A DNA stretch of 64,000 nucleotides from Podarcis melisellensis (lineage: Eukaryota): the NCBI GenBank assembly GCA_964234715.1, contig OZ174284.1; one strand, written 5' to 3'. This document shows, piece after piece, positions 23,532-64,000 of the stretch. Both the position numbers and the translations under genes were made by a program. Under the pieces are notes generated by a model that was not told the origin of the DNA, searched no databases, and worked only from the letters and a program-made list of their open reading frames with translations. Numbering within the stretch: position 1 is the first letter of the stretch; every line of letters begins with the position of its first letter.

Positions 23532-23575
<44 letters not shown>

Positions 23576-33399: not shown

Positions 33400-33446
<47 letters not shown>

Positions 33447-36103: not shown

Positions 36104-36146
<43 letters not shown>

Positions 36147-45100: not shown

Positions 45101-48100
45101 GGGGACAGTGGGGAGGTGGAGAGCGCCTTCCCGCTGTTCCCCGACCTGGTTTGGAGGCTAGCAGTGGGGAAAGCAGCGCTTTTCCCCACCGCCAGCCCCA
45201 CAAGCTCGGGGGACAGCAGGGAGGCAGAGCGCGCCTTCCCGCTGTTCCCCGACCTGGTTTGGAGGTTGGCGGTGGGAGCTGCCTGCATCCCGAAGCCTGG
45301 AGCGCGCTGAGCCACGCGCCCCGGGCTTCGGGAAGATATCCACAAGCCTGGGGAGACCAGCGCGACTTCCCACCGGGCTCCCTAGGCTTGCGGATAGCAG
45401 CCTGTTCTGGGGGCTAGGGTCGGGGGAAGCCCGGGTTTCACCCGCTCCAGCCCTGCGCCTGGGGGGGGTGTAATTTTTTTTCTTTATTCCCCCCCCCCCA
45501 AAATGAGGTGCGCCCTATGGGCCGGCGCGCCCTATGGGGCGAAAAATACAGTAAGGAAGTACCATTCTGAAGTTTTAGATAGGAAGCGTTTTCTTCACAT
45601 AGAATATATTGTCAAGGATTTCATCTGAATGGCTAAAGTATTTTACAAGCATATGCTCTTTTATGTCACACACATTTATCTAAAATAGATATTCTGACAC
45701 TTACTAACACAGATAAGAAACATCATCACTCTAACTCAGGACAGGGGGCCCTTTTCAGGCAGAGTGCCAAATTACCCTGGTAAAAAGGTGTTTAGGGCTG
45801 CATACTAGTAGTGGCAGGCCCAAGCTCACACATGCAATCACACATATACAAAGCTGCTTCCACTGGAAACAGAGGCATACATTTAATTCTTAGTAAAACT
45901 AGTCAAGTTCCATTTTCCATTTCCTCCATAGACTTGTTTTACCAAGTTTGTAAAACAAAAAAACAAAAAACAAAAAACCCCACACTCTCCAACATCCTTT
46001 CTATGTCCTAATTGTGCAAAAGGTAAAAAGAACTCTGCTCCCCTAAGATTCTATGGTCCATCTGAACAGGTTATAGTACTCACTGTGCTTCTCTGTTCAA
46101 TCTGTGGTCTCTCCAGGGCAATAGTGATGCAGTTCAGGAAAATGAAGGCCAGGACAATGTAATCAAACAACTTATGGGCGATGATAGTTTGACAGAGGAT
46201 ACGAAATCTGAAAGACAGTTCACTTGTTTGTGAAGTGCATATGTTTCTAAGGGATGATAGGGGTAGTGAGAAGGTTTGGGGGAATTGGAAGATGATAAAA
46301 TTACTCCCTGAAACTTTAGCTGTTAAACCTCCTGTTCAAAATTCGTTTGGTTCCACTTGAAGACTGTGCAACTGATTTAATTAGTATTGCCTCATGGCAA
46401 ACTTTTAGAATCTCTCATTTTATTAATAATAAATAGTAGTAAATTTTAGAGCTGGGATAACTTCCTCTGCTGCTATAAGCTTTGCAAAATAATGCAGAAT
46501 GTATTGTGAAAAGAAGATACAGTAGTGCAACATTGCTAAAAAAAATACATCATGGTGTATGTCTGATAATGTAATGCAGGCATCAGCAAACTTTTTCCGC
46601 AGGGGGCCGGTCCACTGTCCCTCAGATCTTGTGGGGGGCCGGACTATATTTTTTTTGGGGGGGGGGGGATGAAGGAATTCCTATGCCTCACAAATAACCC
46701 AGAGAGGCATTTTAAATAAAAGCACACATTTTACTCATGTAAAAACACGCTAATTCCCAGACCGTCCGTGGGCCGGATTTAGAATGCGATTGGGCCAGAT
46801 CCGGCCCACGGGCCTTAGTTTGCCTACCCATGATGTTATTCATAAACCAACCATGTGCTCTAAAAGATGTGCAGGTGTGACTGAAGGTAAATGCAAAAAA
46901 TTCAAGGCAGCGTGGTAGTATCACACCCCAATTTGCCCATCCCTCACAAACATAAGCAAAAGTAAAGGACACATACCTGTTTTGTGGTGAGAAAAGGTAG
47001 ATGGACCAGTCTTCACGCAACTCACACCAGTCTGGCTTGTAGGCCTCTATCATCTTTTTGATACGGAAACACAGGCTCTGTGAAAAGCGAGGCAGAGCAT
47101 CAGAAGTTGCCGCCTTCTTCACTTTCCCCATATGAGCAAGACTCCTTTAACGCCTTGCATACCAAAAACTGAGACACCTTACAGGTTCTTCATCTATATG
47201 GATCATTCACTACCCACCATGCCCCATGCAGGGTAAGAAAATGACTTGAAATCACAGCTGTGGGAGACGATGATGGCATGGTCAGAGCGTTCAGAAGTTT
47301 CTCTCTGATCTGACATAAAACTGAAGGGCTGAAAAGAGAACTTCAAGGTCATCAGAGCCAACTGCAAGCACCATGGCAGGATTAATGAACTAATTTACCT
47401 CCTAGAAAGTAGAGAATCAGCACTGCCATTCTTACTTAGACTGAAAGCTTTGCTGATTGGGCAACACTTAAAATTACTAACAGCCATGGGCTACTGAAAC
47501 AGCTCAGAGCATTGCCTTCTACCGAGAAAACCCCCAAATGCCCCTTATTGATACTGACATTTCACACCTGGTGAAATCCAGTGAGTTCCTTAGAGAGAGA
47601 ATTTTATGTAGCAGAGACTGAATCCTGAGCACCCTTACTTGGGTGTTGGGAGTAAGTCTCGGGGAATCAGACTCAATTTGAAGTAACATTGCATAAAGTT
47701 CACAGTATTTTTTCAAACATTGGCTACATCAGAGGTTTGTGCATTCTTACTAATATTGCCTATTCCATAAGTAATAGAGAGACACAGTTAGAGGCATGCA
47801 GGTATCCATGGGGATGTTCCTAATGCCAAAAATATAAAGGAGAGTCTGAGATGTAGTATAAGAGGAAATATTCTACTAACACATCTGGAATTTCAGACAA
47901 GACTCAGGCTAAGGACAGGGCTTCAGATAGATACACGTAAAGCCTAATCACTGCTGATCTTTAAAAAACAAGAAAACCTATGAAGATTGATAGGATTCTG
48001 CTGTACTTGTGGGTGGGATTTTTAGCTGTTCTTGGTGTATGACAGAGATTGAATTTTCATGTCTTGTAAGCTGCCTTGCGTGGGCAGTGTGCCCTGAAAG

Positions 48101-51100
48101 GTGGTAGAAGCACTCTGAAACCAATTAAATAATGCCAGAAGAGTCTATGGCTTGGGAAATCTGGGGAACCATAGAGTTCTATAGAGTTCTTCAAAAGCTG
48201 ATCACTCTTCAATGAGATCAGAATGGGCAAATCTTCCTGGAAGATAGCTCACTCACCACTAGGGAAGGGCAAATGTCTCAATTTTTGTCTCTCTGTTTCT
48301 ATTTTTTTCTGTTGTCAAATTCAGTTCTCCACATTTCTGTATCAGTTTGTGATTTTTGTAAAAAATATATATATCGTGAAAACTGATCAGCATTCTAATG
48401 CAAATTTCTCCTAACATACATGTGCTGGTATAAAATTTTGCCTGATATACACATTCCAATAGGCAATTTTCCTGAGTAGAATGCGTTTTCATACGGTATT
48501 TTCACTAATATATGCATTCTTATGCACATCTTTACCTACTATTTCCTTCCTTGGTATGCATTATTTAATTGAAGAAGTGCAACACAAAGTCACAGAACAC
48601 AGTGTTCTTTTCAGAGAACATGACATGAAAAGCATTTCATGGGAGGAGAAGTTTTGGAAAGGGTTCTCTTAGAGCTTCACTGTGATCTCTCTTTGCACAG
48701 TACAGGCAGGAAGTTCTGGGCTGGTCCAGCTCACCCTCTGCTATGATGGCTCTCCTCAACTTTACAAAGCCCTAGTGCCCCTTTAGTGGAGGAAGCAACT
48801 ACTTACATAGTCTATCTCCTCCTCGTCTTCTCCATGGTCTTTGCGGTTGTTCATTTCTGGGAACATATCCTTAGCAATGTTGGGCATTTTGCCATTGCAG
48901 TTTTGGTGCTCACTGGGCCCTGTGGTCACACCCATTTTCCGCAAAGGCCTGTGATTGGATAGGACCGTGGGTGCCAACTCCACCAGTTCAGAGGAGCCTT
49001 TGGTGTCCAAGGAGAGGGTTCGCCGATGGTGGTGAACTCTTACTAGCCCTTCCTGTTCACCCTCTGATGCCCTGTGTCGTTCCCCGGATAAGAGGGACTC
49101 GTGCTCAGCTGAAGGAGGCTTGTGCTTGAGGCTGTGTCCCCGGGCGAGGCTGTTCCAGCTGGAGCGGCGGCTCCCCCAGCCCCCAGTCCGGCTCCAGGCA
49201 CCGTAATGAGAACTACGAGAGCTAGACTGCAATAAATCCAAGAAGAGGGTTCAGCGCCCCCACCCAAATAGGAAAGCAGCACAAGTCAACATCCTCAGCC
49301 ATTTATTTATTCAGAATGTTTTCATTAGGAAAATCACATGAGGCAGTTCAGAATCAGCACAGATCATTAAAATTACAATGGAACAATAACTTACTTCAGA
49401 CTAGTTGCTTTTACTTCAAGCTCTTTTAACTGTAAATTAGAGGTATATGGTTTTGGCTTGGTCATCGTAATAACTAAATCACACCCAACCACCCAGCACT
49501 ACTCTTATCCATTTCCATAGGGCTGGAAGGGAAATGGATCTTGCACATTCTAACAGTGGGGACAACGAGTTCTGGAAAACCATGGGTGATGTGGAGCAGA
49601 AATTCATGGAAGATACAGCTTTCAATGGCTACTAGTTAGGATGGCTATAGATTATCTACAGGACCAGATGCAACATGTCTCTGGATGCCAGTCACTAGGG
49701 AACAGCAGGAGAATAGGGCTATCACTCCCTCAATCTGCTTATGGGCTTCTCAAAGACACCTGACTGGCCTCTGAAGGTAACAGGATGTTTTGGTCTGATC
49801 CAGCAGTGCTCTTCTTACATTTGAACTGAAGCTGGAGTTGGGATTAAGGTTTGAATTAAGAGAGATGTTGATTAAGCTATAGTACACATGCTCTGAATGT
49901 AGAAGAACTTATTCTCTGGTCCCATAAAGTAAACTATCTTATTCTCAGGTGTTAGGACTGGAAATCATTGTAGTATGTTGGCTTTAGGTAACATGTGCTA
50001 CACCTAGATTTAAATTCACCCACCAGAGACATCACACTGCTTTTCCTGGATTCGAGGGCCATGAGGACTTGGTCTGGCTGCAGAGTATTGCGGGAAGGGT
50101 TGGGAATTCCAGCAGCTGCTCCAGGCTGGTTGAGACATGGAAGGCTGGGGTCAAGATGTCCATTTGGGGTCATGGGAATTGCACAAAGCTTTGGATCTAA
50201 GCAGAAAAATGCAAAGGAAAGAGAGCAAAGGACATTCCGTTTTCCACCCAGAGAGCCCTTCGATAAATGCATTCACGTGCTTTCAGATATATAGTGAACT
50301 CGAAGGAACTGTGCTCATACATAAATTCCACATACATAGATTCAGACTTTGGCACTATCTCCATAGCAATGCCTCTAGGAAATAGGGAGAACAATATGGG
50401 AGAACAAAAAGTATCCTTCTTCTCCATCATCCAATAGCTTCTGCACTGACAGTGCTTCATACTTTTCCCATTAAATCTGGGAAACGTTCTCCTTGGGAGA
50501 AAGTAAAGCTTATTCTTTATTGCCCAAATGCTTAGCAAAGAAGATTCTTGCAGTAGGCACTCCACTACAGCAGCAGGAGAACTGATGCAGTAGCAATAGC
50601 TATCCTTAGTGTGAGCAGCTTAATATTCACATACATGGAAAGAAGCAAAACGGCAATGACTGATGATACCCCCCCTTCCTGCTTTCAAATCGAAGGCAGC
50701 TGTAGCTTTGTTCCTGCAGCAGGCACACATTACAAAAGGAGAATATAGTAAAAATGAGAGAAACCGATGAAGACATTAACCAATCTGTGACAAGCTGTTT
50801 TGTACCCTATGTTTGAGAGCCACCTCTGCGTCCCCAGACCAACACCAGCAAGTCTCTTTTCATTTGTATCTGGGAATCTATCTACTACCAGACATGTCTT
50901 GACTTCCCTGGAAGCAGAGCGCCTATTGAGCCATTTGGCCTTGGAAACCCGTCAGCAATATTAGGGGCTTTGAGGTTCTGAAGCAAGCAGACAACCAGTG
51001 AAGTTCCCTCCAGGTTGGGCACCCTACAAACCAACAGCAAATAAAAACTGAAGTCCAGAAGGAAAGGCAGAGATGTATCTTTAGAATGGTACACACTATT

Positions 51101-54100
51101 GGGTGCTGCCATATGGTAAAGAGAAAAGATCATTGCTCACAACACAAAGGTAAAATGCAATTTCTCTCTTCAAGTACCACTCCAATGTAGTAAGGGTGTC
51201 TGACTGGCGTGAATTTCCATGGTACGTTGCCCCCATCACTTTCTTTAAACCCCGGACTCCCAGCGAACTTCCCCCTCTTCACTGTGGTCCTTAGTAAGAA
51301 TACGCAGGCTTGTAACCGGCATTTACAGCTGTTTGTGTTGAGGGCAATTTGCAGTATTCTCAAAGAAGTGCAGAGGGCATTGCTTTGGCTATCACACAAA
51401 CAAAATTCTGCCATCCTGTCTTTTGGCTGATTTTACAGATGTTTGAATCCAACCTTTTGTCAAGTCAAATCAGTACCCACGGGGTATTTTACACAGATTT
51501 TTTATTTCCGTCTGATGTGCTTTGTGTGATTTGAACACTAGGGGTTTGATTGAAACTCAGTGTGGGAGCCCTGTTCCATCAGCAGCTTGAACATCTTCAT
51601 CATTGTTATCCTAGTTCCTATGAGGTCGAGTAGAAAAGCCAAGTATCCTGATTTCGCCAAGCCTGCCTAGGACATCACTGTTGCCTTTCAAAGAGAAATG
51701 GCAGGATCTGGGCCACAGCGTGTCCAAAAGGCATCAAAATCCTTTAGTAAAACATTGCAATAGCTTTGCCTTTTACTATTAGAAATGCAAATGCATTCAA
51801 ATTGTCCATTGCTGTGGACTCAGAGCACATTTGGGGTAGAGGAAGATGAAAAGGGAAAGCTGTAGCTCAGTGGTAGAGAAACTGCTTTGCATGCAGAAAG
51901 TCCTAGTTTGATCCCCAGTGTCTCCAGATATGGCTAAGACAGAGAATCCTGCCTGCAACTCTGGAGAGCCACTGTCAATCCAGTGTAGACATTACTGAAC
52001 TAAATGGACCAATGGTCTCACTCAGTATAAGGCAGCTTCTTATGTTCCTAAGGAGGGAACTTTCCAAGATGTTATGTTTTCACATATAAAAGCAGAGACC
52101 AACACAACTGTAAGTAGGATCCAAGATTATTCCGCTTTTACAAGGCAATCAAAAGTAAGACCTACTGAGATCAATGGGGATTACTCCCAGGTAAGTCACT
52201 ACGATTGCAGCCTAATTCAAAGTTGCAAGGTAGTTATGCTAATAAGCCAGAATTGCAGCCAATCTTGAGAAATAGGGAAAATGGGCAATATTAAGTAATA
52301 GACTTTATTTCGCTACTCTCATGAAAACCAATATGTTCACAAATTAGATTTCATGCAGCGGTTCTCACTGCAGTTATAGTCATGCAGAATTCCTATACCA
52401 CCTTCTCTTACCCGAGCCATCTTGGAATTTGTCAAACTCCTCATTGTTTGATGAACTCTGATCGTCATCTGAATATGACCGGTTAGCATCACCCTGCATT
52501 GGGAAAATAAAATCAAAGACCTGGGAATTGTGAGCATCCTGAGAGCAAAGGAGGTGCTTCCCTGTGATTCCAGCATTTTGTGGCTTCAGCTTGGTAGGGG
52601 ATTTCCAAGGCAAGGCAAACTACTTTATGGAAATCATTAGCTGACATGCCACTGCACAGAAGAGGCAACACCTTAGTGTCCAGGCCATGTAATGGCACAT
52701 GTCCTTGCTTTTCTTGCAGTTGCTTTGAAACCCACCCTCCGCAAACACGTTCCTTGGAAGATCACTGGACATGGGATGCCTCGCCACCCTTTCTAAGCCC
52801 TTCAGGCTATGTCCCCAACCAGCTATAGATGTGTGCCATACCCTCCCTGAAAGCAGCTACTGTAGCAACTCACCTCGGCCTGGAATCCCTCCACCAAGAT
52901 GGCCACCAGCAGATTGAACAGAACATAATTGCCAAATGTCATGAGAGCCACAAAGTAAAGAGATGCCCATGGAGAAGTTGAGGCCATGCCATTGTAGAGC
53001 ACAACATTCCAGTCCTCCTGAGTCAAGATCTGTAACACAGAACCCAAGCTTGCAAAGTCAAATCAAGAACAAAACATGCAGGCTGGAAAATACATTAACT
53101 GACAGGTAAAAAGTATCTAATTGGTTTTATCCTTTTCAGCCCGCTCATATGCATTAACTTTTTTCTGTTTTGGTCATGATATATCTTTTTTCCTGAGGAG
53201 ATGCATTGGCTGTGTTGTGCTGTTCCAATGCCACAAGCACTCTCTGAAATGTAGTGGGTTGTCATTTACAGTTTACTGTAGAGTAGCAGAAACACTGTGG
53301 ATCCCTTACCAGTGGGCCGAGCTGAGCTCACAATCATTAGTGGGTTGCAACTGATGGCATGGTGTTAAGCATAGCAGCAGGCCCACAAGCCTGATGGTTC
53401 AAATCCTATCCTTTCCCTTAATCACTCCTTGTTTCTTGGAAGACATGTCTCCTTCCCCTCCCCTTATTCCCTTTTCCTATTTCTTGGTCTCACCTGGAAC
53501 ACTGTGACAATAGCCCAAAGTAGGGAGTCAAAATTCTTCCGGTCAGGGACTGTGTCTCCTGTGTCAGTCCTGAGGCTGAATTTGCACCCAAAGATGTGCA
53601 TTCCCAGGATGCTGTTGGAAAGAACAGTTTTTTAATTTTTAAATCAACACATTTCTGATGTAATTTTCATTATTAAAATGTTCTTATTTATTTACCACAT
53701 ATGTATCCTATCCTTCTACTAAAGAAACTAGGGCAATACATATATGGCTTGTCACAGGACCCAGAGCTCTGCCTCCTCACCCCCAGAAGAAGAGGTCACG
53801 GATATAGGGGACAGAAGGATTTGCCCTCAGAACCAGCCTTTGGTGTCCCTACCTCACTGGGAATTCTAGCACCAGGAGAACCTGTCATGCCAGTGCCTCT
53901 CTGGCTGGAAGAGGCTGCCCTGCCTTCCTCAGACTCGTTTGGAGGCTGTAGCAGAATCCCAGACTCCACCATATTGCTGGGTCATGGGCCATTTGCAACT
54001 TAGATTACTAGTTCTAATCCCATTTATCCCAGGCTCGTTCACCGTGAATTTGTTTTCCTTATTATTCAGGGGGAAAATGCTCTGTCTGTTGTTAACCCTG

Positions 54101-54890
54101 GGTAACTGTCAGCAAAACCCATACTTAAAGGGTTTGAACGTCTGTTCCTCTACCTGCACATTTCTGTTAGCGCAGCAGTTCAGGGTTTCCTGACTAGCTA
54201 CTTTGCATTTATCTTGATTTTGTGAACTGTCATTTTAATTGGTGATTTCCTGAATTGTTCAGATCCCGGCATTATTGCACATTGTTTTCCATTAAGGGCA
54301 CAGAAACAGTGTTTAATTGCACATGACTCCCAAAAGGAAGGCACAGAGAGCAGAGAGAGTTCACAACAATTTTCTCCCTTTAAACACAGCCTGGACTTGG
54401 TGCTTTTGGTTGTGATGTTGGTTGCCAAGGGTGTTTTTTATCAGTTTAGGTTAGTTTGGCAGCTGTGGCTTAAACTCTTAATAAATATCATTTAAAAAAA
54501 TAAAAATAAAGACTGTTTGGAAAATGCTGCTGGCACAGAATGTGGCTGCTAAGACATCCAGATCGTATTACACCTATGCTGCATCAGTTACATTGGCTAC
54601 TTTTTCATTTCCAGGCCCAATTCAAGGTGCTTATTTTAGCATATACCGTAAAACCCTAACTAGTTTGGGACTATGTTATCTGAAAGACAGCTAATACATC
54701 AACATCAGCACCTGAGACCTTGCTCACCAGCCCACCAGTGAGACCCATTAGGCTGGTGGTGATGGGCAGGGGCTTTGTTAGTGGTGACCCCACACTTTTG
54801 GAATTCCCTTCCCATGGCATTATCACTGCTGAGCAAAACAAAACTCTGAAGACAGAAGTCTGCATTTAGCTGATTTGCACTGCTGCTGCT

Positions 54891-54927
<37 letters not shown>

Positions 54928-57283
54928 TGTAATAATAATTTCCTGTGTTTTGAGTTTTGCAAAGCTGCCTTGAAAAGTGTTTTCCCCCTTAACACAGCAA
55001 GTTTTAACAAACAAACATACATCCTTTCTTGTGACTGAACAAGTAAAATGGATCTCATTCTGGATAGTGTCTCTGCACCCTGGAATTCCTCTTTTCACCT
55101 GAATATAAAGATAAACAGCATGAGGAGCATGCAGAAGGTAGCGACATTGTCCATGGTCTTCATGAGCACCACCAGCTGACGCCGCAAGGCAGGCATGAAC
55201 CTCACCAGCTTCAACACCCTCAGTAGCCGGAATGTCCTCAACACGGACAGGCCACCATCAGCTTGGCCTATGATCTCCCAGATGCTACAAAACAGGGACA
55301 AAAGCAACAAGAGACAAGGGAGGGCCAGAGTGAGACCTTGAGAAAAGTAATAGAAAGGAATCCCAAAGGATGATGAATGACAGTGTGAATATTATAAATA
55401 GAAGCAACTTTTATTTGAGTGATCTTTAACTGAGATCCAGGTAGACTGTGTTTGCCAGAGAGCGGGAAGGAGGGAGATAATTTTGGTTGTCAATTGCACT
55501 GGTGTCTATAAACCAAATATCCCTATGTGTAAGAAATACAAAGTTTGTCTGAATTAATTTGGTGAGAACAAAATACACTTGCTTATAACTCCTGAGTTAT
55601 TCTTTGTTCTTTGGAGTTAATGTTCCCCTTATATCCTTCCCTTAGTCAATTTCAACAGGTTCCTTCAGGATCTCTCCTGAAAGCATTTTATACAAAGATG
55701 TTATGATGCTCCACAGAAGCGAAAGCTTGTTTCCAGCCTCAAGAACCAGAAGGGAAGAAACAAAGGGTGAAAACTACAGCTTAGCCAAAACGGCAGCCCC
55801 AGTTCACTGCTCTGCCCCCCCCCCCCATGTTTGCAGGTGGCAACTGTTTTGGTAACCTTCAATGGAGCCATAATTCAAAAAACATACACAAACACCGTAA
55901 ATGGTTTTGGAGGTGCTTTGCTCAAGGGTGAAAGCAGGGGCTCTTTCCTTTCCTTTTCTTAGTCCTGCTCATAAATTTCAGCAGGTCTACACTGAGTAAA
56001 ACCTAGTTGAATAATATCTTCTGGCTACCACTACCAAGCTCCCCTCTTCTCAGGTGCACTGCACCCTGGCAAGTAGGAAGTAGGGAGGTCCTGGTGGCCA
56101 ATCTCTCTCCCTGCTGCCAAAACCTCTTGCAGAGCGAGCGGCTTTTAGAGTGCTAAGACTGAAGTAGGAAGCTGCAGCTGCCAACCTGCATGATGAAGGG
56201 CCTGTTTTGACCCCAGAGTCCAGCAGTGAGGGAGCCAGAGAAGATTCCTGGGTCTGAGTCTGAAGCTGGTGATCAGGGGACCACCAAACTGGAAACTGGC
56301 AAGGAGGAGCTGACTGAAGCAGATGCCACAGCACCAGGATTCTTAAAACTAGAGTCAGGAACTTCCTGGATAATTTCCTCTAGATGTGAGGAAGCAAAGC
56401 TTTGTGCCCCTGTAGAGTTGTCAAAAGTCAGAGTAGATTCATCTGAGCTAAATGAACCTGATAGAAGTCAGCTTCCTCTGTTCCTGTATAAATGGTACTC
56501 TGAACAGGGTGGGTGTTTAGAAACTGATGGACAGTTGCAGTGAATGGCGAATCTAGGCATAAGGTTCTCTTACAGTTATAAGGCTGCACGTGGACCTATA
56601 TGATCGGACAGTGGGTGGTATTTAACACCAGTCCTACTCAGGGAATGTCCATTGAAGTTAATGGACCTGAATAACTTTGGTTCATTAGTTTCAGTGGGTC
56701 TCTTCTGGGTAGGACACAGTTGAATACTAACCCCCCCCCATGTTTAACGGATTTATGCAAGCAGAACCATGATACTCATGGTTTTATATATAGCAAAATG
56801 GATCACAATTACAAAGTTAATAGGAATTGTCCTGAATCCAAAGGAAAGCTGGTGGAAAGGCTGAGAACAGACTCCAGAATGGCAAGTTCCTTGGTCCTGT
56901 GCACTACCTTTTCAAGTGGCTCTCACATTTTATTGATTAAAATGTTTAATATAAAGTAGTGGCGTCACCAAAGGCTAGAATGGCTTGAGATGTGCTGTCC
57001 CAACACAACATTGCTCAGAACACTGCTTGGAATGAGTTTCATTTACTTCTTGGGCAGCCCCAAAACTGACCCTCACCCATCTTTCTTACACTACTTCTCA
57101 TACATTGATGCATAGCTTTGATTATCATTACCTGATGATGACGATGATGCTGTCATAGATGTTGTAAGGATTGCGAAGATAATCAAAGAGGCCAAAGGCA
57201 GCAAGTTTCAAGATCATCTCTAGGGCAAACATGCTGGTAAACACAACATTGCAGATTTCCAAAATATTAGTCAGCTCTTCTGG
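2990..57283 (-). CDS. CACNA1I: T-type voltage-gated calcium channel alpha-1I (Cav3.3), 5'-partial multi-exon gene (27 exons in window, 1543 aa)
   Basis: 27 GT-AG exons join in phase (4632 nt including stop). S4 segments [26 protein letters not shown] and [13 protein letters not shown]; pore motifs QEDW, SKDGW, TGDNW. The C-terminus ([43 protein letters not shown]) and the IIS1-S2 sequence [11 protein letters not shown] match Cav3.3 rather than Cav3.1/3.2 (from recall of the family). Confidence 0.96.
4049..4399 (-). mobile_element. Sauria SINE
   Basis: (ACCTTT)n-type tail read as ggtaaaggtaaaggg; tRNA-like B box GGTTCGAATCCC on the minus strand; near-identical second copy at 17068. Confidence 0.9.
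6717..6913 (-). CDS. CACNA1I: CACNA1I window exon 26 (C-terminus)
   Basis: [28 protein letters not shown]...[25 protein letters not shown]; 197 nt; |gtaagg. Confidence 0.92.
8401..8566 (-). CDS. CACNA1I: CACNA1I window exon 25 (C-terminus)
   Basis: [55 protein letters not shown]; 166 nt, ends in phase 1. Confidence 0.88.
9369..9488 (-). CDS. CACNA1I: CACNA1I window exon 24 (C-terminus)
   Basis: [40 protein letters not shown]; ctgcag| and AAG|gtaaaa; 120 nt; read manually. Confidence 0.9.
12587..12814 (+). mobile_element. Tc1/mariner-pogo-type MITE, copy 1
   Basis: Terminal inverted repeats (TIRs) CAGTGGTACCT...AGGTACTACTG, TA on both sides; two more copies in the window; strand is relative orientation. 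Confidence 0.88.
14875..15021 (-). CDS. CACNA1I: CACNA1I window exon 23 (C-terminus)
   Basis: [49 protein letters not shown]; 147 nt; not in the ORF track, read manually. Confidence 0.92.
15601..15921 (-). CDS. CACNA1I: CACNA1I window exon 22 (IVS6 and proximal C-terminus)
   Basis: [69 protein letters not shown]...CYSPAQ; 321 nt. Confidence 0.95.
17068..17409 (-). mobile_element. Sauria SINE with 12-bp target site duplication (TSD)
   Basis: Same family as 4049-4399; TSD ttcatattcata at 17056-17067 and 17410-17421. Confidence 0.92.
17897..18018 (-). CDS. CACNA1I: CACNA1I window exon 21 (IV selectivity filter)
   Basis: [41 protein letters not shown]; 122 nt. Confidence 0.96.
19114..19192 (-). 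CDS. CACNA1I: CACNA1I window exon 20 (IVS5)
   Basis: [26 protein letters not shown]; 79 nt; |gtaagt. Confidence 0.96.
22445..22755. mobile_element. CR1-like LINE 3' fragment (related pieces near 5735-5897, 32935-33095 and 49590-49820)
   Basis: Recurrent motif aagaac..aag..gcctgctggatca.gcca.tgg.cc..ctagt...catcctgttct..cagtggccaacca; family assignment from recall. Confidence 0.5.
23530..23580. repeat. (GAAA)n microsatellite
   Basis: Direct reading. Confidence 0.95.
24723..24793 (-). CDS. CACNA1I: CACNA1I window exon 19 (IV S4-S5 linker)
   Basis: [24 protein letters not shown]; 71 nt. Confidence 0.95.
25699..25882 (-). mobile_element. tRNA-derived squamate SINE (Squam3-like), degenerate
   Basis: Reverse-complement similarity to 51853-52050 (taggaacatagg...ctctacctctgagccacagcccttcc); another degenerate copy near 44230-44420. 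Confidence 0.6.
25945..26078 (-). CDS. CACNA1I: CACNA1I window exon 18 (IVS3-S4)
   Basis: [44 protein letters not shown]; 134 nt; AAG-type acceptor. Confidence 0.96.
26975..27084 (-). CDS. CACNA1I: CACNA1I window exon 17 (IVS2)
   Basis: [37 protein letters not shown]; 110 nt. Confidence 0.96.
28571..28963 (+). mobile_element. Solo LTR (393 bp)
   Basis: TGTTAGGA...TTCCAACA termini, perfect 5-bp TSD gattc (28566-28570 and 28964-28968), internal AATAAA near 28764. Confidence 0.8.
29121..29346 (-). mobile_element. Tc1/mariner-pogo-type MITE, copy 2 (inverted relative to copy 1)
   Basis: ta|CCGTGGTACCTC...GAGGTACCACTG|ta. Confidence 0.88.
31319..31461 (+). mobile_element. L2-clade LINE extreme 3' end with (ATT)n tail
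   Basis: ggaagccgcccagagtggctggggaaacccagcc shared with the 58651 copy. Confidence 0.75.
31673..31898 (-). mobile_element. Tc1/mariner-pogo-type MITE, copy 3 (inverted relative to copy 1)
   Basis: TAGTGGTACCTC...GAGGTACCACTG|ta; internal sequence nearly identical to copies 1 and 2. Confidence 0.88.
32071..32222 (-). CDS. CACNA1I: CACNA1I window exon 16 (IVS1)
   Basis: [51 protein letters not shown]; 152 nt; |gtgagt. Confidence 0.95.
33195..33387 (-). CDS. CACNA1I: CACNA1I window exon 15 (IIIS6 and III-IV linker)
   Basis: [64 protein letters not shown]; 193 nt. Confidence 0.96.
33401..33446. repeat. (GACA)11 microsatellite next to a splice acceptor
   Basis: Direct reading. Confidence 0.95.
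36107..36141. repeat. (GA)n microsatellite
   Basis: Direct reading. Confidence 0.95.
36773..36862 (-). CDS. CACNA1I: CACNA1I window exon 14 (III selectivity filter)
   Basis: [30 protein letters not shown]; 90 nt. Confidence 0.96.
38118..38543 (+). mobile_element. tRNA-derived squamate SINE (Squam3-like), split by an insertion
   Basis: Colinear with the intact copy at 51853-52050 once 38266-38505 is removed. Confidence 0.65.
38266..38505 (-). mobile_element. Probable short solo LTR nested in a SINE
   Basis: TG...CA ends; flanks ggtct/ggtgt (4/5 TSD); AATAAA on the minus strand; interrupts a SINE whose halves rejoin. Confidence 0.6.
39284..39409 (-). CDS. CACNA1I: CACNA1I window exon 13 (III extracellular loop)
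   Basis: [42 protein letters not shown]; 126 nt. Confidence 0.96.
40640..40812 (+). mobile_element. tRNA-derived MIR-like SINE
   Basis: A-box-like GTGGTGTAGTAG, B box GGTTCAAATCC, core GTGACCTTGGGCCAGTCAC..CTCTCAGCC; related fragments near 7860-7990, 33810-33970 and 63045-63130. Confidence 0.7.
40828..40954 (-). CDS. CACNA1I: CACNA1I window exon 12 (IIIS5)
   Basis: [42 protein letters not shown]; 127 nt. Confidence 0.96.
41330..41738 (-). mobile_element. L1-type LINE 3' fragment
   Basis: Minus strand encodes [43 protein letters not shown] (typical non-mammalian L1 ORF2 C-terminus), then an AT-rich 3' UTR, AATAAA and a poly(A) tail (poly-T at 41330-41340). Confidence 0.75.
41941..42125 (-). 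CDS. CACNA1I: CACNA1I window exon 11 (IIIS3-S4)
   Basis: [62 protein letters not shown]; 185 nt. Confidence 0.96.
43335..43403 (-). CDS. CACNA1I: CACNA1I window exon 10 (IIIS2)
   Basis: [23 protein letters not shown]; 69 nt; |gtaagt. Confidence 0.95.
44802..45551. mobile_element. Non-autonomous Tc1/pogo-type DNA transposon with internal GC-rich 108-bp tandem repeat
   Basis: TIRs CCGTATTTTTCGCCCTATAGG / CCTATGGGGCGAAAAATACAG, TA on both sides; repeat units start at 45035, 45143 and 45251. Confidence 0.85.
46084..46207 (-). CDS. CACNA1I: CACNA1I window exon 9 (IIIS1)
   Basis: [41 protein letters not shown]; 124 nt; |gtgagt. Confidence 0.95.
46577..46832. mobile_element. hAT-type MITE
   Basis: Degenerate TIRs CAGGCATCAGCAAAC / GTTTGCCTACCCATG; 8-bp flanks atgtaatg / atgttatt (6/8); internal GGGCCGG motifs. 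Confidence 0.7.
46977..47077 (-). CDS. CACNA1I: CACNA1I window exon 8
   Basis: [34 protein letters not shown]; 101 nt. Confidence 0.95.
48230..48600. repeat. Old dispersed AT-rich repeat of unknown class (related to about 7160-7530 and about 36225-36540)
   Basis: Shared motifs ttcagttctc.acatttct..atca.tttg.gatttt and actaatata.gcatt.ttatg.acac. Confidence 0.45.
48807..49226 (-). CDS. CACNA1I: CACNA1I window exon 7 (II-III linker)
   Basis: [11 protein letters not shown]...SRRSSWNSL...[16 protein letters not shown]...HQNCNGKMP...GEDEEEIDY; 420 nt; |gtaagt. Confidence 0.93.
50024..50196 (-). CDS. CACNA1I: CACNA1I window exon 6 (II-III linker)
   Basis: [19 protein letters not shown]...[10 protein letters not shown]; the donor CTG|gtgggt is phase-compatible with the next exon; 173 nt. 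Confidence 0.85.
51853..52050 (+). mobile_element. tRNA-derived squamate SINE (Squam3-like)
   Basis: A box TAGCTCAGTGG, degenerate B box GTTTGATCC, tail ATAAGGCAGCTTCTTATGTTCCTA; family name from recall. Confidence 0.7.
52412..52493 (-). CDS. CACNA1I: CACNA1I window exon 5 (II-III linker)
   Basis: [27 protein letters not shown]; atgcag| and G|gtaaga; 82 nt, ends in phase 1. Confidence 0.9.
52874..53029 (-). CDS. CACNA1I: CACNA1I window exon 4 (II selectivity filter and S6)
   Basis: [52 protein letters not shown]; 156 nt. Confidence 0.96.
53494..53611 (-). CDS. CACNA1I: CACNA1I window exon 3 (II pore loop)
   Basis: [39 protein letters not shown]; 118 nt. Confidence 0.95.
54892..54926. repeat. 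(GT)n microsatellite
   Basis: Direct reading. Confidence 0.95.
55099..55284 (-). CDS. CACNA1I: CACNA1I window exon 2 (IIS4-S5)
   Basis: [62 protein letters not shown]; 186 nt, AG/GT boundaries. Confidence 0.96.
57132..57283 (-). CDS. CACNA1I: CACNA1I window exon 1 (IIS2-S3)
   Basis: [51 protein letters not shown]; ctgcag| acceptor, |gtaatg donor; 152 nt. Confidence 0.95.
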
Positions 57284-57292
57284 CTGCAGGAG

Positions 57293-57333
57293 AAATAAAA
57301 TAAAATAAAATAAAATAAAATAAAATAAAATAA
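57293..57333. repeat. (TAAAA)n microsatellite forming an acceptor pyrimidine tract
   Basis: Direct reading. Confidence 0.95.
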
Positions 57334-58107
57334 TCAGAAGCCATTTAGGAAACTTTCTATCACACACTGTTCCGCCTAGTGTGCAAGAAATGGGGACTCT
57401 GGGTAGAGAAGAGACTCTTGCAACTTTTTCATTTTATTATTTATTTTTTAAATTGCATGTTAAATGTCTGTCTGTAAAACCACCATCTCCCAGTGATGTC
57501 CCAATATTTCATGATGTTTCACTTGTTATCCCCGAGTTTTTACCTTAAATCCTTTATGTTCTGTTTTGGTTCTGTCTCCAGGACTGCAGGTTGTTGCTGT
57601 TTTTTTAAATTGTAGCTGTTTTAGGGTGAAGAACAGCTTCACCCTATGAAATGAAGAAATGAGATTGCAGGAAGCTTAATGTGCCAATTTGGTGTTCCAA
57701 AGAAGATTGAGGATTACTGTGATGTTCCATAGAGATTTACAATATACCATGTATATTGTACTGAATGCTGGTTCCTTACGAATAAGGATATGCGATACAG
57801 ATTATGGACCAGCATACCAACTGGGAACTTGAAATTGTTTTGAAGATCCTCAGGGCATTTGCACTGAGGCCGTTATATGCATGTTGAAAAACCTTATCTG
57901 TAAAATTTGCATCTCAGTACTGAGAAAGGTATAAGTTATTTCTGCAAGTTTCATGTTCTCATTTTAATGTATGCATATTTGGGACTTAACCGTACTAGTG
58001 CCCTCTTCTGCCTCCTATAGAATTACATTACTATGTTACTAATGTTGATCTTAGACTATAAAAATTTAGAGTGAATTCACTGCTGGATTGCCAGACATAG
58101 CTCTATT

Positions 58108-58276
58108 CAGTGGCATAGCGTGGGGGGTGCAGGGGGGGCCGGCCGCACCGGGCGCAACATCTGGGGGTTAGAGTTAGGGGGCACAAATCCACGGATTATG
58201 GGGCGCAAATCCACGGGTTAGGGGGTGCAAATTACTTGCCTTGCCCCGGGTGCTGACAACCCACGCTACGCCACTG
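58108..58276. mobile_element. hAT-type MITE (169 bp)
   Basis: TIRs CAGTGGCATAGCGTGGG / CCCACGCTACGCCACTG; perfect 8-bp TSD gctctatt (58100-58107 and 58277-58284). Confidence 0.9.
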
Positions 58277-58454
58277 GCTCTATTATGGACTTGGTTGTAT
58301 TCAAACAACAGAAGCACACAATTTCATTTTTGTGGTCTTTCACTGACTATTTCTATAAATAATTTTGTTTTGCATCAAACTTTGTTGTTCTTTATGATCA
58401 TTGGATATATATTTTTTCATCTGCTTAATTGGCACAAACTATTTCAATCCCCTT

Positions 58455-58516
58455 CTTTTCTTTTCTTTTCTTTTCTTTTCTTTTCTTTTCTTTTCTTTTC
58501 TTTTCTTTTCTTTTTT
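58455..58516. repeat. (CTTTT)n microsatellite
   Basis: Direct reading. Confidence 0.95.
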
Positions 58517-58650
58517 AAACCATCAACAAGGTATGCTTATCATTTCCACCATCCATGGCATGTGCTGGAGCACTAGCACCAGACTATGATGGTATACTAG
58601 AGCTGTTTTCTAAAACGAATTAGCACATTTCTTTTAAAAATTGTTTTGTA

Positions 58651-59000
58651 TTAAACCCTAAATGGCCTCAGTCCAGTATACCTGAAGGAGCATCTCCACC
58701 CCCATCATTCTGCCTGGACACTGAGGTCCAACACCAAGGGCCTTCTGGGAGTTCCCTCCCTGCGAGAAGCAAAGTTACAGGGAACCAGGCAGAGGGCCTT
58801 CTCAGTAGTGGTGCCCACCCTGTGGAACGCCCTCCCACCAGATGTCAAAGGAAAAAACAACTACCAGACTTTTAGAAAACATCTGAAGGGCAGCCCTGTT
58901 TAGGGAAGCTTTTAATAACTGAAGGACTATTGTATTTTAATATTTTGTTGGAAGCCGCCCAGAGTGGCTGGGGAAACCCAGCCAAATGGGCGGGGTATAA

Positions 59001-59048
<48 letters not shown>
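58651..59048 (+). mobile_element. L2-clade LINE 3' fragment with (ATT)n tail
   Basis: Encodes RQRAFSVVVPTLWNALP...FRKHLK (L2-type ORF2 C-terminus); shares its 3' UTR with the copies at 60376 and 31319. Confidence 0.8.
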
Positions 59049-59051
<3 letters not shown>

Positions 59052-60375
59052 ATTTCCCTTAATGCAAAAGTCAATCAATCAATCAATTTTTGGAAACAAA
59101 AAATAACACTCACCCCAGTTATTTTGAGATTTCCTCTCCATTTGCAATAATGCATATTTTCGAACAAAACTTTCCTCTATCCTTCCTTTCTTCTTTTCTC
59201 GGTGTTTTCAGCTTCCCACCCCCAGTCCCTTTTTATACCCATATTCTTCTAGTAGCAGCTTGCTAGGCCTTGTTCTGCTAATCTTCTCACATAACTCTCT
59301 CTCTTGGCTGCTGTCTCATTAATTACCCAATGGAATATGTAGATATCTTGGAATGTATTTTATCGAAGAGGAGCTTGTTATGCTTTGCGCTCAAGCACAC
59401 ACTTAGGCTATAACACAATTCCATAAACAGAGTATGCAGCCAATCATGTCACTTCTATGTTGCATACAGAACAAGCGTGTCAAGAAAACTGGTGGCATGA
59501 TGCTATTACCCCCTGGGATGTTTGTGGTGAAAAAAAGGCTTGAATCAAATGATTCAGCCTTGGATGCATGCGGTATCAGGGTTTCACTCGGGTCCTTTGT
59601 GGTCTTCTTGGAACTTGCAAATAACATCCACTCACTAAGCCAGAAAAATACAGTTCTGCTTAGTTTGTGTGTGTGTACAACAAATAAGTGATTGAATGAA
59701 TAGACTTCAACCACCTGCCCTCCGATGCTTTCTCCTGAGTTCCCATTCCAGTTCCTGAGCGCTTTGTCCCACATAATCATCTGTTCACTCACACCAAGTG
59801 GTTTTGACAACTGCTGTCCAAAAAAATCCCCTCCCTCCTGTATTCTGAAAAAGCAAAACCCTTCTCTCTCCACAGCCTACTAATTCATCCCCACACTTTC
59901 TCGGGATCAGTGACTTCACGCTAATTTCAACACAATGAGAAGGGGAAAACAACAACAACTGCACACCTTTCCCATGCCAGATGATTCTTTATTAAAGCTG
60001 CCAGTTTCCCTAAGTGAAAAAGTAAAGACAGAATGGGAAACAAGGCCTCTATTTCCACCCATAATTATGTTTGACTAATAATGCAAGTGCTAAAAGGCAA
60101 AAGATGGAACGTAAAAACTAACAGAGTGATCTTGTACATTGTCACACAGAAGGAAGAGTAAGTGTTTGTAGGGTAAGACTATGCACACTGTAGTAAGCCC
60201 CAGGGAAGCAGAATTTACTTTGGAGTCAATCTGCATAGGATTAACTTCTAAGGGTCGTCCCTCATAACTTAAAAACCTGTATTGTAGGGTGAAGAAAAGA
60301 CAGACGGTAATTTCAGAAGGAAGTGGAAATCCCTCCCCTTATTTATCTCTACTTTTACCATCTCTACCATATAAC

Positions 60376-60825
60376 ACTGGTCCTGAGATCTGCATTGGCT
60401 CCCAGTACGTTTCCAAGCACAATTCAAAGTGTTGGTGCTGACCTTTAAAGCCCTAAACAGCCTTGGTCCTGTATACCTGAAGGAGCATCTCCACCCTGAT
60501 TGTTTAGCCCAGACAGTGAGGTCCAGTGCCAAGGGGCTTCTGGCGGTTCCATCACTGCGAGAAGTGAGGTTATAGGGAACCAGGCAGAGGGCCTTCTCGG
60601 TAGTGGCGCCTGCCCTGTGGAACGCCCTGCCATCAGATTTCAAGGAAATTAGTTTCAAGGAAATTTCAAGGAGATTTCAAGGAAATCAGATGTCTTTTAA
60701 AAGACATCTGAAGGCAGCCCTGTTTAGGGAAAATTTTAATGTTTAATGCTGTATTGTTTTTAATATTTGAATGGGAGCCACCCAGAGTGGCTGGGGAAAC
60801 TCTGCCAGATGGGTGGGGTATAAAT

Positions 60826-60857
<32 letters not shown>
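60376..60857 (+). mobile_element. L2-clade LINE 3' fragment with (ATC)n tail
   Basis: Encodes [34 protein letters not shown]...[15 protein letters not shown]; same family as the 58651 copy. Confidence 0.82.
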
Positions 60858-62087
60858 TACTTTTCATTTCCTGAGCTGAAGAATCAGGCAGAACAAGAAC
60901 ATTTTGGCTCATTCAATAAGCCTCTGTGTAAAACTCCCGCAAGCTGGTGTGAAAGATAGCAGCTTTTTGCAATATGTGTTCTGAGGCAGGTTGAAAATAG
61001 GATGCTGTCCTAAAATTTGTATGTTTATCCTGGACATGAAGGAACGCCAACTGTAATTTCACCCTATCACTCTCCAAGGCAGATATCACATTAGAATATA
61101 TTTTGCATTTTACTACCACTACCCACTTCTGAAAATGTTGAGTTGCGGGGAGGAGACGCTAGAAGAAAATACGAGTGAGGACTGAGCAGGACAAAAACTT
61201 GTTTTGTAAAAATAGACATAACCTGCCTCACTGTGAACGCTTTAATTTCTAAATCGCATTGTGGTGTGTTTTTCATTTTTCCTTGCCTTTCTGAGAAGAG
61301 GTCTATGGGGCTTGCATTTTCCTCCCCCTTCATCTGAAATAGATGAGAGATGTGAAACCCGAGGCACGGAATTGTGCCCTGAATATGACTAGCATATTTC
61401 ATTCTGATCTCAATGTTCAAATGGAGTATCTCACAAACAAATAAAATGCTGAGTGTGTGGGAGAGTGAAACTAAAGACCTCACCTTGTTTCACAAAAAGT
61501 AGTGGTTTTTGACATGGCAGGGCAGTGGTAGAGAGAGGTGGGGAGCAGCTTTTCTAATATCCATCTACTTCAATTATTCCTGCACATGGTACTAGAGTTG
61601 CACGTGGTGGAATTCCCGCATACAGTCATTCAATAAACACACCCCAGTGTTCAAGCAATGACACTAAAAATGTCAAAGATATCACACGGAACCACTCCGA
61701 CAAGTCTCCCAAATAGAAATAGCAATGGAGGTGCTGTATGGGGAACTTATTGCAAGCACAAAATATAGCACACAGACCAAGTCTGGGAAATGCAGTCTCC
61801 ACCCCACAGAAGGGGTATTGAGGAGAGAAGTGTGGCTTGCATAAGACAAATATGTAACATTAACAAGTGCATATTTACTTTGCTGAAAATGTATTCTGCA
61901 GAAAGGTTATAGGGGGGAACTTCTATTTGTAGTCTAATGCTCATTTCCATGAAGCTCCCCACCACAGAGACGAGCGCACATCCAAGTGGATTAAAGATAC
62001 GCCTATTTTTGGCAAGGCGTTTTCAGATACCAGGCCTGTCCTATTTAGATGTGCGCTTGTCTGTATGGGGGCAAGCACAACCGTGAT

Positions 62088-62175
62088 GAAAATAAGCTCA
62101 GAGCTGCACAAGCAAATCTGCACAAGAAAAGAGCTGCACAAGAAAATAAGCTCAGAGCTGCACAAGCAAATCTGC
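62088..62175. repeat. 54-bp-period tandem duplication
   Basis: gaaaataagctcagagctgcacaagcaaatctgc at 62088 and 62142. Confidence 0.85.
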
Positions 62176-64000
62176 CCGAAGAGTCTTTGGCAGAAACTAG
62201 AAAAAGCAAAAATACCAATTCCAGCCCAAACCGAACAGATTATGTCAGTGATAATGAGAAATGTAATGTAGCATCATGATATACTGGTGAATTGTCTTCC
62301 TTGCTCCTGCTGACGTGTTCTCTCTCTCACGCCTTCTGTGCCTTCGTGAGGAACTGATGTTTTAAAAGTCATCCTTGTCTGTCTCTTACCGAAAAGGTCA
62401 CCTGTTCCCGCTCACTCTCCTTTCCTCCCTGACATCTGTTTCACTAGTCAAGTGCACATCTGCTAATCTTTTTCTAATGGGCCATCACTCACCCCAGGGA
62501 ATGGTTCTACCTAGGGAGCTGGGTAAGAAAAGAAGAGCGTAGGAGAGGGAGACAGGAGAGGAACGGCTGGGGAAAGGCAAAACTTCTAACAATTCCACAT
62601 TCCAGAGTGGAAGGGAAAATACAAAACAGAACACGGAGAGCCAGAGACACAATGAAAAAGCAAAGCAAAGAGGAAGCCAGAAGCAAATTATTAGGATGGG
62701 AAAATAATGAGGGGAGGGGAGGCTGAAGACATGCAATACAACTAAAGCACATGACTTCCCTCAAAGAACCCTGGCATACAAAACAAACAACGATGAGGAT
62801 AATATATGAAGCCCAAACTAGACGCTTTGTTGGGGGTGTTTAACAAAGTTGCAGGAGTGGGAGGAATGATGGTCAGCACACACTTGGCTGTTTCACACCA
62901 GCTGTTGGACCAACCTATCTCACAAGGTTTCTATGAAGGAAGGAAACAGGTGGTGGTGAGGGAGATTCAGTTTTCCTGCTCAACCACAGATCTCACTTAC
63001 AGTGCAATCAAGAGCTAGCTCAACTGAGTTCAGTAGAATTGACTCACTTTGGATCTTGAGCCAGCTGTCAGCCTAACCAATCCCACAAGGTTGCTGTGAG
63101 ATTAGAAACGGGGAGGCGAACCATGTACAATGGCAGGCATAAAATGTAAGCAATATTCAGAGGCATACTTAGCTGCTATGAAGTTAATTCATTGATAGAC
63201 CTATGCTCCATAAATTTGTCCTAAAGAAAGTGGCCATCACTATTCCCAGTGACAAGGAGGTTGACAAACCTATTATGTGTTGTATAAAGAAGTACTTTCT
63301 TTTGGCTATTGTGATAGGGCAGGTTAATCTAAGACAGGAGTGGGGAACCTGCGATTCTGCAGAAGTTGTTTGACTCCCATCAACCACAGCAAGCATAGCC
63401 AATGGTCAGGGATGATGGGAGTTGGAGTCCAACAACATATGGAAGGCCACAAGTTCCTCACATCTGACCTAAAAAGAGAGTAAAGTCTTATCTACACTAC
63501 ACTAGCTCATCTTTATTATTACTTCATACTTTCCAGGGCTGAGTCACGGCACTGATTTTAAAAATGTTCTGAAGTTAAGCTGTGGCAATACTGGTTCAAA
63601 TTAAACCCTTTCCAGAGGTCTTAGCACATACTGTTGTTATGTTCTGATGGTTATTCTATAAATAGTCCTAAACAGTACATTAACTCAAGCTTATGTAAAA
63701 TTTAAATGAAGTAACTCACGCCAAAATCTCCCTTTAGCTACATGGCTCTTGGATAACCTCTCCATCATATAAGTCATGTGTTTATAATATTTGAATACTA
63801 GTAGATGATTATACTGATTGTTCTTTGCCCTTAGTCGTTGCCAATCAAAATGATAACTACTCAGCTCCTTTAATTTTTCTTTTATGTCAGAGCTTTCTTT
63901 TTAAAAAATGATTTATGTTTTTATACAGGCCTCCTCTGAGCTGGGCATCATTATTTTTTAAGAATGAGGTGGCTACATTAGTGCTTATTATACAAAGCAG

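What the first reader, a model, noticed from the sequence alone, without database searches (positions are those of the whole stretch)
62485..62740. Candidate unannotated microexon with a dual acceptor: 18-nt VEPFPG insert or 26-nt poison exon
Seen on the minus strand: a long CU-rich tract (CCGTTCCTCTCCTGTCTCCCTCTCCTACGCTCTTCTTTTCTTACCCAG), then CTCCCTAG|GTAGAACCATTCCCTGGG|GTGAGT with a perfect donor at 62492. The intron is phase 0. The TAG acceptor gives 18 nt (62493-62510) encoding VEPFPG, inserted just before PEEL in the extracellular IIS1-S2 loop of voltage sensor II. The CAG acceptor 8 nt upstream gives 26 nt (62493-62518) reading L-P-R-stop, an NMD poison exon. Pyrimidine-rich sequence extends about 200 nt upstream, with an RBFOX TGCATG at 62730-62735. 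Established: neural microexons have this architecture and are often missed by annotation. I do not recall such an exon in Cav3 genes. Inclusion is inference.
Basis: partly seen in the sequence, partly recalled or inferred. Interest (0 to 1): 0.75.

Follow-up and report, generated by a model that had tools for sequence, protein, structure and literature searches.

The report
Unproven tiny exon in lizard Cav3.3
An intron of a lizard T-type calcium-channel gene (CACNA1I) holds unusually strong splice signals around an 18- or 26-base stretch, but it is likely a normally skipped cryptic exon, because none of 413 related channel proteins carries the six extra amino acids and no RNA evidence was obtained.

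Summary
The sequence is as described. It lies on the minus strand of a wall-lizard-type CACNA1I (Cav3.3), in the intron before the PEEL exon: pyrimidine tract, CAG and TAG acceptors 8 nt apart, donor GTGAGT; 18 nt = VEPFPG, 26 nt = L-P-R-stop. It is the best exon-like site in 54 kb of intron once pyrimidine content is counted; chance gives such a site in roughly 2-11% of windows, with thresholds set afterwards. Against a protein-coding neural microexon: 0 of 413 junction-spanning homologues carry the insert (68 of 68 squamate, 8 of 8 lacertid join directly). The CAG (stop-codon) acceptor outscores the TAG. There is no UGC near the acceptor, and the TGCATG is upstream only, one of 41 in the window. 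Of 11 AGs that could pair with this donor, 10 shift frame or add a stop. The exon starts with GT, so recursive removal is a further option. No RNA reads and no orthologous DNA were obtained, so inclusion and conservation are untested. Verdict: likely skipped cryptic exon (0.5); poison exon 0.22; VEPFPG microexon 0.15; recursive exon 0.1.

The parts
62493..62510 (-). 18-nt candidate exon (TAG acceptor), in frame, VEPFPG; begins with GT
   Evidence: acceptor score 9.0, above 17 of 27 real acceptors
62493..62518 (-). 26-nt candidate exon (CAG acceptor), stop at codon 4
   Evidence: acceptor score 11.8, above 26 of 27 real acceptors
62487..62492 (-). donor GTGAGT (exonic side GGG)
   Evidence: score 8.1, above 9 of 26 real donors
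62513..62577 (-). CU-rich polypyrimidine tract (88% pyrimidine over 50 nt)
   Evidence: the 27 real acceptors range 0.48-0.82
62513..62731 (-). extended pyrimidine-rich, A-poor region (76% over 200 nt), not a simple repeat
   Evidence: 3 such segments on the sense strand, 2 on the antisense strand
62523..62527 (-). nearest yUnAy branch-point match (A at 62524; -14 from TAG, -6 from CAG)
   Evidence: use inferred
62587..62724 (-). 135-nt AG-free stretch with three further yUnAy matches (A at -198, -181, -143)
   Evidence: second longest on the sense strand, but 3 longer ones lie on the antisense strand
62730..62735 (-). TGCATG (RBFOX motif), about 224 nt upstream
   Evidence: 1 of 41 on the sense strand; no GCATG within 1500 nt downstream
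62493..62566 (-). alternative 74-nt form (CAG acceptor, score 7.3), stop at codon 20
62493..62770 (-). alternative 278-nt form (CAG acceptor, score 9.8), stop at codon 88
57132..57283 (-). downstream constitutive CACNA1I exon (PEEL..., S2-S3 of repeat II)
2993..64000 (-). host gene CACNA1I (Cav3.3), 27 exons mapped in the window; 5' part lies outside
   Evidence: 1546 of 1552 residues of a Podarcis raffonei protein covered by exact 7-mers

Best explanation
This is likely a cryptic (pseudo-) exon that is normally skipped: strong splice signals sit in a CACNA1I intron, but the channel mRNA would join the HHEQ exon straight to the PEEL exon. Shown: the signals, their frames, and the direct join in homologous proteins. 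Inferred: 18-26 nt is too short for ordinary exon definition without a dedicated enhancer, and the usual ones (UGC before the AG, downstream TGCATG) are missing; the little leak that occurs would mostly use the higher-scoring CAG, add a stop at codon 4 with 27 junctions downstream and be degraded by nonsense-mediated decay, or use the TAG and be cut out again at the regenerated AG|GT donor, so no VEPFPG channel would accumulate.
For: 408 of 413 junction-spanning homologues join directly and 0 carry VEPFPG; 68 of 68 squamate and 8 of 8 lacertid proteins join directly, although the same lacertid records do resolve a 27-nt alternative acceptor elsewhere in the gene. Loop length is the same in all 408. 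Nearest TGC is at -69; no GCATG within 1500 nt downstream; 41 TGCATG in the window; the downstream YCAY cluster is 1 of 47 (46 antisense). Long pyrimidine patches and AG-free stretches also occur on the antisense strand. 10 of 11 AGs give a frameshift or stop. Chance expectation is low but not negligible for a scan of many windows. No mention found in print.
Against: It ranks first of 209 sense and 186 antisense candidate pairs when pyrimidine content is added; only 2 of 100 simulations give such a pair. The 220-nt tract is non-repetitive and A-poor (0.2% of windows), and the only comparable sense-strand complex tract precedes a real exon. Extended tracts are typical of neural microexons and about a quarter lack UGC (PMC12871342; 10.1101/2024.09.17.613571). 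Protein records are largely automated gene models, are not independent, miss microexons and cannot show poison forms; two of the three searches favoured insert-free sequences.
Confidence: 0.5

Rival explanations
1. A regulated poison exon: the 26-nt form (or the 74- or 278-nt form) is included in some cells, likely under control of pyrimidine-tract-binding proteins, and lowers Cav3.3 by nonsense-mediated decay.
For: The CAG acceptor is the strongest (11.8) and the first AG after the main tract; stop at codon 4; CU-rich tract with 12 TCTT/CTCT motifs in 250 nt, top 1.2% of windows; would be invisible in protein data; cryptic NMD exons regulate another voltage-gated channel, Scn9a (PMC3552424, passages).
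Against: No RNA or conservation evidence; the best branch-point match lies only 6 nt before the CAG, too close to serve it (spacing rule recalled); similar tracts occur on the antisense strand.
Confidence: 0.22
2. A true neural microexon: the TAG acceptor is used with the branch point at -14, and VEPFPG is inserted into the short S1-S2 loop of repeat II, which would alter gating or ligand access of a Cav3.3 subpopulation.
For: 18 nt is the only clean in-frame form of 11; a yUnAy match at -14 would bypass the CAG; extended pyrimidine tract fits neural microexons; exons of 6-21 nt are the class most often unannotated, with a 6-nt calcium-channel example (PMC4317164); the junction lies in a hydrophilic dip between two hydrophobic segments; a real exon of this gene also starts tag|GTAG.
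Against: 0 of 413 homologues carry it; no UGC nearer than -69, whereas 74-79% of SRRM3/4 microexons have one; branch point near rather than far (median 45-47 nt in neural microexons); TGCATG enrichment is downstream, not upstream; a stronger AG sits 8 nt upstream.
Confidence: 0.15
3. A recursive-splicing exon: the TAG form is first joined to the upstream exon, which would regenerate a donor (upstream exon end plus GTAGAA), and is then removed with the downstream intron, leaving normal mRNA.
For: The 18-nt form starts with GT; with a CAG exon end the rebuilt donor scores 7.1, above 5 of 26 real donors; the mechanism is described for vertebrate exons (PMC6224609, passages); it predicts exactly the direct join seen in all proteins.
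Against: The upstream exon's last bases are outside the window (CAG assumed); the rebuilt donor is weaker than the downstream one (7.1 vs 8.1); GT is the commonest exon start, so AG|GT is unremarkable; the downstream intron part is only 5.2 kb.
Confidence: 0.1

Closest known systems
SRRM3/4-dependent neural microexons (3-27 nt)
   Same: Size, multiple of three (18-nt form), extended pyrimidine tract, consensus GTRAGT donor, neural host gene.
   Different: No UGC between branch point and AG, nearest branch match close (-14), a stronger AG 8 nt upstream; neural inclusion and conservation not shown.
RBFOX/PTBP1-regulated alternative micro-exons (PMC4317164)
   Same: Pyrimidine-rich upstream flank; a TGCATG nearby; length class often unannotated.
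   Different: The reported TGCATG enrichment is downstream; here the only one is 224 nt upstream and none lies within 1500 nt downstream.
Poison (NMD) exons of voltage-gated channels: Scn9a E17a (PMC3552424); SCN1A 20N (recalled)
   Same: Cryptic intronic exon with a premature stop far from the last junction.
   Different: Those are conserved and seen in RNA; this one is very short, and neither property is shown.
Recursive-splicing exons (PMC6224609)
   Same: AG|GT at the exon start plus a downstream donor that could define the exon.
   Different: Rebuilt donor only moderate; no intermediate shown.
Known small inserts in calcium channels: Cav2.1 NP and Cav2.2 ET/SFVG in S3-S4 loops, Cav3.2 exon 26 in the III-IV linker (all recalled); Cav3.1 and Cav3.3 events listed in PMC2696442
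   Same: Short cassette inserts that tune a calcium channel.
   Different: None of the events in the passages read lies in the repeat II S1-S2 loop; Cav3.3 events named there are exon 9 and exon 33.

Membership tests
CACNA1I (Cav3.3) host gene | Orthology of flanking exons | tested here: met
Neural microexon | 3-27 nt between AG and GT | tested here: met
   18 and 26 nt
Neural microexon | Frame-preserving, no stop | tested here: met
   18-nt form only; 10 of 11 forms fail
Neural microexon | Extended polypyrimidine tract | tested here: met
   0.88 over 50 nt, above all 27 real acceptors
SRRM3/4-dependent microexon | UGC between branch point and AG (present in 74-79%, not strictly required) | tested here: not met
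   nearest TGC at -69; figures
Neural microexon | Distant branch point (median about 45 nt) | tested here: inconclusive
   yUnAy matches at -14, then -143 and beyond with AGs in between; no trained predictor available
RBFOX-enhanced micro-exon | TGCATG in the downstream flank | tested here: not met
   none within 1500 nt downstream
Neural microexon | Insert present in protein isoforms of relatives | tested here: not met
   0 of 413; gene models often miss microexons
Neural microexon | Conservation of exon, splice sites and flanks | not testable with these tools
   no eukaryote genome collection; metagenome scans gave 0 loci; no own genome
Neural microexon | Inclusion in neural RNA | not tested
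   no run on record as RNA held the stretch; no reads were laid
Poison exon | Premature stop well upstream of the last junction | tested here: met
   stop at codon 4; 27 exons follow
Poison exon | Inclusion rises when NMD is blocked | not testable with these tools
   needs RNA experiments
Recursive-splicing exon | Donor rebuilt at the exon-exon junction | tested here: inconclusive
   7.1 on a gene-trained matrix if the upstream exon ends in CAG; that exon is outside the window
Recursive-splicing exon | Splicing intermediate or lariat | not testable with these tools
   needs nascent or total RNA

The most novel reading that the evidence does not exclude
An undescribed dual-acceptor microexon in reptile Cav3.3 acts as a switch: branch-point choice selects either the TAG acceptor, inserting VEPFPG into a loop of voltage sensor II whose length is fixed in 408 homologues from fish to mammals, or the CAG acceptor, sending the mRNA to decay.
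Probability: 0.12. Interest if true: 0.6.

Novelty: new member of a known kind. Interest (0 to 1): 0.22.

Why it matters
If it is skipped, it is ordinary: introns hold many exon-like sites. If the 18-nt form is included, it would be the first small insert found (in the searches run here) in the repeat II S1-S2 loop of a Cav3 channel, a loop of constant length in all 408 directly joined homologues, and a testable way to tune T-type currents. If the 26-nt form is regulated, it gives a dose-control point for CACNA1I and a reason to look at the same intron in mammals. All three mechanisms are known kinds.

Tried and rejected
Own genome: none held. Sequencing runs: no RNA holder listed among 9 rows, which is no evidence on expression; no reads were laid, so inclusion stays open. 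Orthologous DNA: exact 28-nt pattern, 0 matches in metagenome contigs; PEEL-exon search, 588 pattern hits, 0 confirmed; both uninformative for a lizard gene. RNA structure: a stem between the CU tract and the purine-rich downstream flank is predicted but not significant (z 0.64 and -1.39). Rfam: 0 matches. Repeat origin: self-BLAST and tandem-repeat search found nothing over 62513-62731. NOVA cluster: 1 of 47, rejected. Distal branch point with 90/93-nt exon: those AGs score -3.6 and -2.9 and longer AG-free stretches occur antisense. Single-sequence fold of a homologous repeat II (P0331): mean pLDDT 46, not used. Supplement searches for CACNA1I and paralogues gave 0 hits in PMC7821500 (8 files), PMC12868881 (1 file), PMC8355340 (9 of 20 files not searched), PMC4317164 (1 file not searched), PMC12626424 (12 files); since paralogues were absent too, these are uninformative; the supplement of PMC12871342 could not be read and may list chicken microexons. 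Earlier scan notes: nothing.

Full report
Observation. On the minus strand, 62493-62510 reads VEPFPG, 62493-62518 reads L-P-R-stop, the donor GTGAGT is at 62487-62492 and TGCATG at 62730-62735. The next exon starts at 57283 with P-E-E-L. The stretch occurs once in the window and the tract is not a tandem repeat or an Rfam family.

Host gene. The PEEL exon matches Cav3.3 best among solved structures (7wli) and CACNA1I proteins among 500 hits (best 120 listed). A Podarcis raffonei protein is covered by exact 7-mers over 1546 of 1552 residues, Lacerta agilis 1533 of 1552, gecko and anole about 1210-1280, so the window is from a wall-lizard-type lacertid. 27 exons were mapped from 57283 to 2993. 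The upstream HHEQ exon is outside the window; phase 0 is inferred from homologues. The junction falls in a hydrophilic dip between two hydrophobic segments at the start of an Ion_trans repeat; that this S1-S2 loop is extracellular is established topology (recalled). The fold prediction was too poor to use (pLDDT 46).

Is it more than chance? With matrices trained on the gene's own 27 acceptors and 26 donors (so real sites are scored in-sample), the CAG acceptor scores 11.8 (above 26 of 27), the TAG 9.0 (above 17 of 27), the donor 8.1 (above 9 of 26). Pyrimidine content is 0.88 over 50 nt (real exons 0.48-0.82) and 0.76 over 200 nt. Among 209 sense and 186 antisense AG-(3-30 nt)-GT pairs the two forms rank first and second when pyrimidine content is added; on splice score alone 7 sense pairs (two of them this site) and 1 antisense pair equal or beat the 18-nt form. 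With thresholds taken from the candidate itself, 0.11 pairs are expected on the sense strand and 0.03 antisense, and 2 of 100 order-5 Markov simulations contain one. The site is therefore unusual for one window, but not rare enough to stand alone in a scan of many windows. 200-nt tracts of this richness occur 3 times on the sense strand and 2 times antisense; the 135-nt AG-free stretch is second on the sense strand but exceeded 3 times antisense.

Regulatory anatomy. Extended pyrimidine tracts and distant branch points (median 45-47 nt) mark neural microexons, and about a quarter lack UGC (PMC12871342, passages); UGC lies between branch point and AG in 74-79% of SRRM3/4 targets and is not strictly required (10.1101/2024.09.17.613571, passages). 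Here the tract fits, but the nearest TGC is at -69 and the nearest yUnAy match has its A at -14 from the TAG and -6 from the CAG. TGCATG is enriched downstream of alternative micro-exons (PMC4317164, passages); here it is 224 nt upstream, one of 41, with none in 1500 nt downstream. TCTT/CTCT motifs are dense (12 in 250 nt, top 1.2%). A downstream YCAY cluster is 1 of 47. Predicted pairing of the tract with the downstream flank is not significant. Of 11 AGs within 300 nt that could pair with the donor, only the TAG at 62510 gives a clean in-frame exon; the others shift frame or contain a stop. The 18-nt form begins with GT; joined to an exon ending in CAG it would rebuild a donor scoring 7.1, the layout of recursive-splicing exons (PMC6224609, passages), though GT is the commonest exon start and a real exon of this gene also starts tag|GTAG.

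Relatives. Three protein searches (best 120 listed of 500, 1427 and 388) and three cluster look-ups (at most 15 members per cluster) gave 524 proteins. 111 do not span the junction (fragments or mis-modelled) and were dropped. Of 413 that do, 408 join directly, 5 carry unrelated inserts that look like intron read-through, and 0 carry VEPFPG or a look-alike; 68 of 68 squamate and 8 of 8 lacertid proteins join directly. The lacertid records do resolve a 27-nt alternative acceptor elsewhere in the gene. Limits: these are mostly automated, non-independent gene models that miss microexons; searches used junction-spanning queries that rank insert-bearing forms lower; poison and recursive forms leave no protein. 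No orthologous intron was obtained. No listed run is on record as RNA and no reads were laid, so inclusion and conservation, the two decisive tests, are open.

Literature. Searches for CACNA1I with microexon (5 papers), poison exon (1), splice variants and novel exon, Cav3.3 with S1-S2 or exon 9/33, and the peptide itself (0) showed no such exon; most hits were seen as listings only. Passages read: PMC11953252 (an unrelated CACNA1I acceptor variant), PMC2696442 (Cav3.1 events; Cav3.3 exon 9 and 33), PMC12149502, PMC3552424 (Scn9a NMD exon), PMC7821500. Supplement searches were blank even for paralogues and are uninformative; one supplement could not be read. The library lacks most subscription papers and splicing databases.

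Mechanism and verdict. Most likely (0.5) a normally skipped cryptic exon: shown are the signals and the direct join in proteins; inferred are poor exon definition without the usual enhancers, and loss of any leak by decay or recursive removal. Rivals: regulated poison exon (0.22), in-frame VEPFPG microexon (0.15), recursive-splicing exon (0.1). These odds are judgement, not computed. It looks like a microexon in size and tract, but membership is unproven: two motif features and the protein test were not met, and inclusion and conservation were not tested. Each reading is a known kind of element. Interest 0.22; the boldest open reading, a dual-acceptor switch between a loop insert and decay, has probability about 0.12 and would merit 0.6.

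Noticed in passing
window 33168-33194 (minus): Reading on past the donor of the exon ending at 33195 gives SKEQPKCFV, close to the 9-residue insert SKAQPKCLV in a chicken CACNA1I isoform: a likely conserved 27-nt alternative donor in the III-IV linker.
   Followed up: partly
window 52494-52520 (minus): 27-nt alternative acceptor adding VFDFIFPMQ in the II-III linker; annotated as X1 versus X2 in lacertids and present in snakes.
   Followed up: partly
window 32224-32458 (minus): 232-nt AG-free, 89% pyrimidine tract before the exon at 32222, the longest in the window; suggests a distant branch point in the III-IV linker region.
   Followed up: no
window 35470-35487 (minus): Another 18-nt exon-like site with good acceptor (9.5) and donor (9.8) scores but an ordinary tract; further pyrimidine patches at 35931-36148.
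   Followed up: no
window 57132-57283 (minus): The PEEL exon reads NIYDS where human Cav3.3 has NIFDS; Podarcis and Lerista proteins match the window 100%.
   Followed up: no
proteins P0013, P0114, P0116, P0380, P0388 versus P0359, P0382, P0417, P0422: Read-through after HHEQ starts with Ala in primate and rodent records but Val in several unnamed ones, hinting that the upstream donor of this intron is GC in some mammals and GT elsewhere; inference from protein only.
   Followed up: no
window 14875-15021 (minus): 147-nt cassette exon (49 residues, C-terminal region) present in some and absent in other squamate isoforms.
   Followed up: partly
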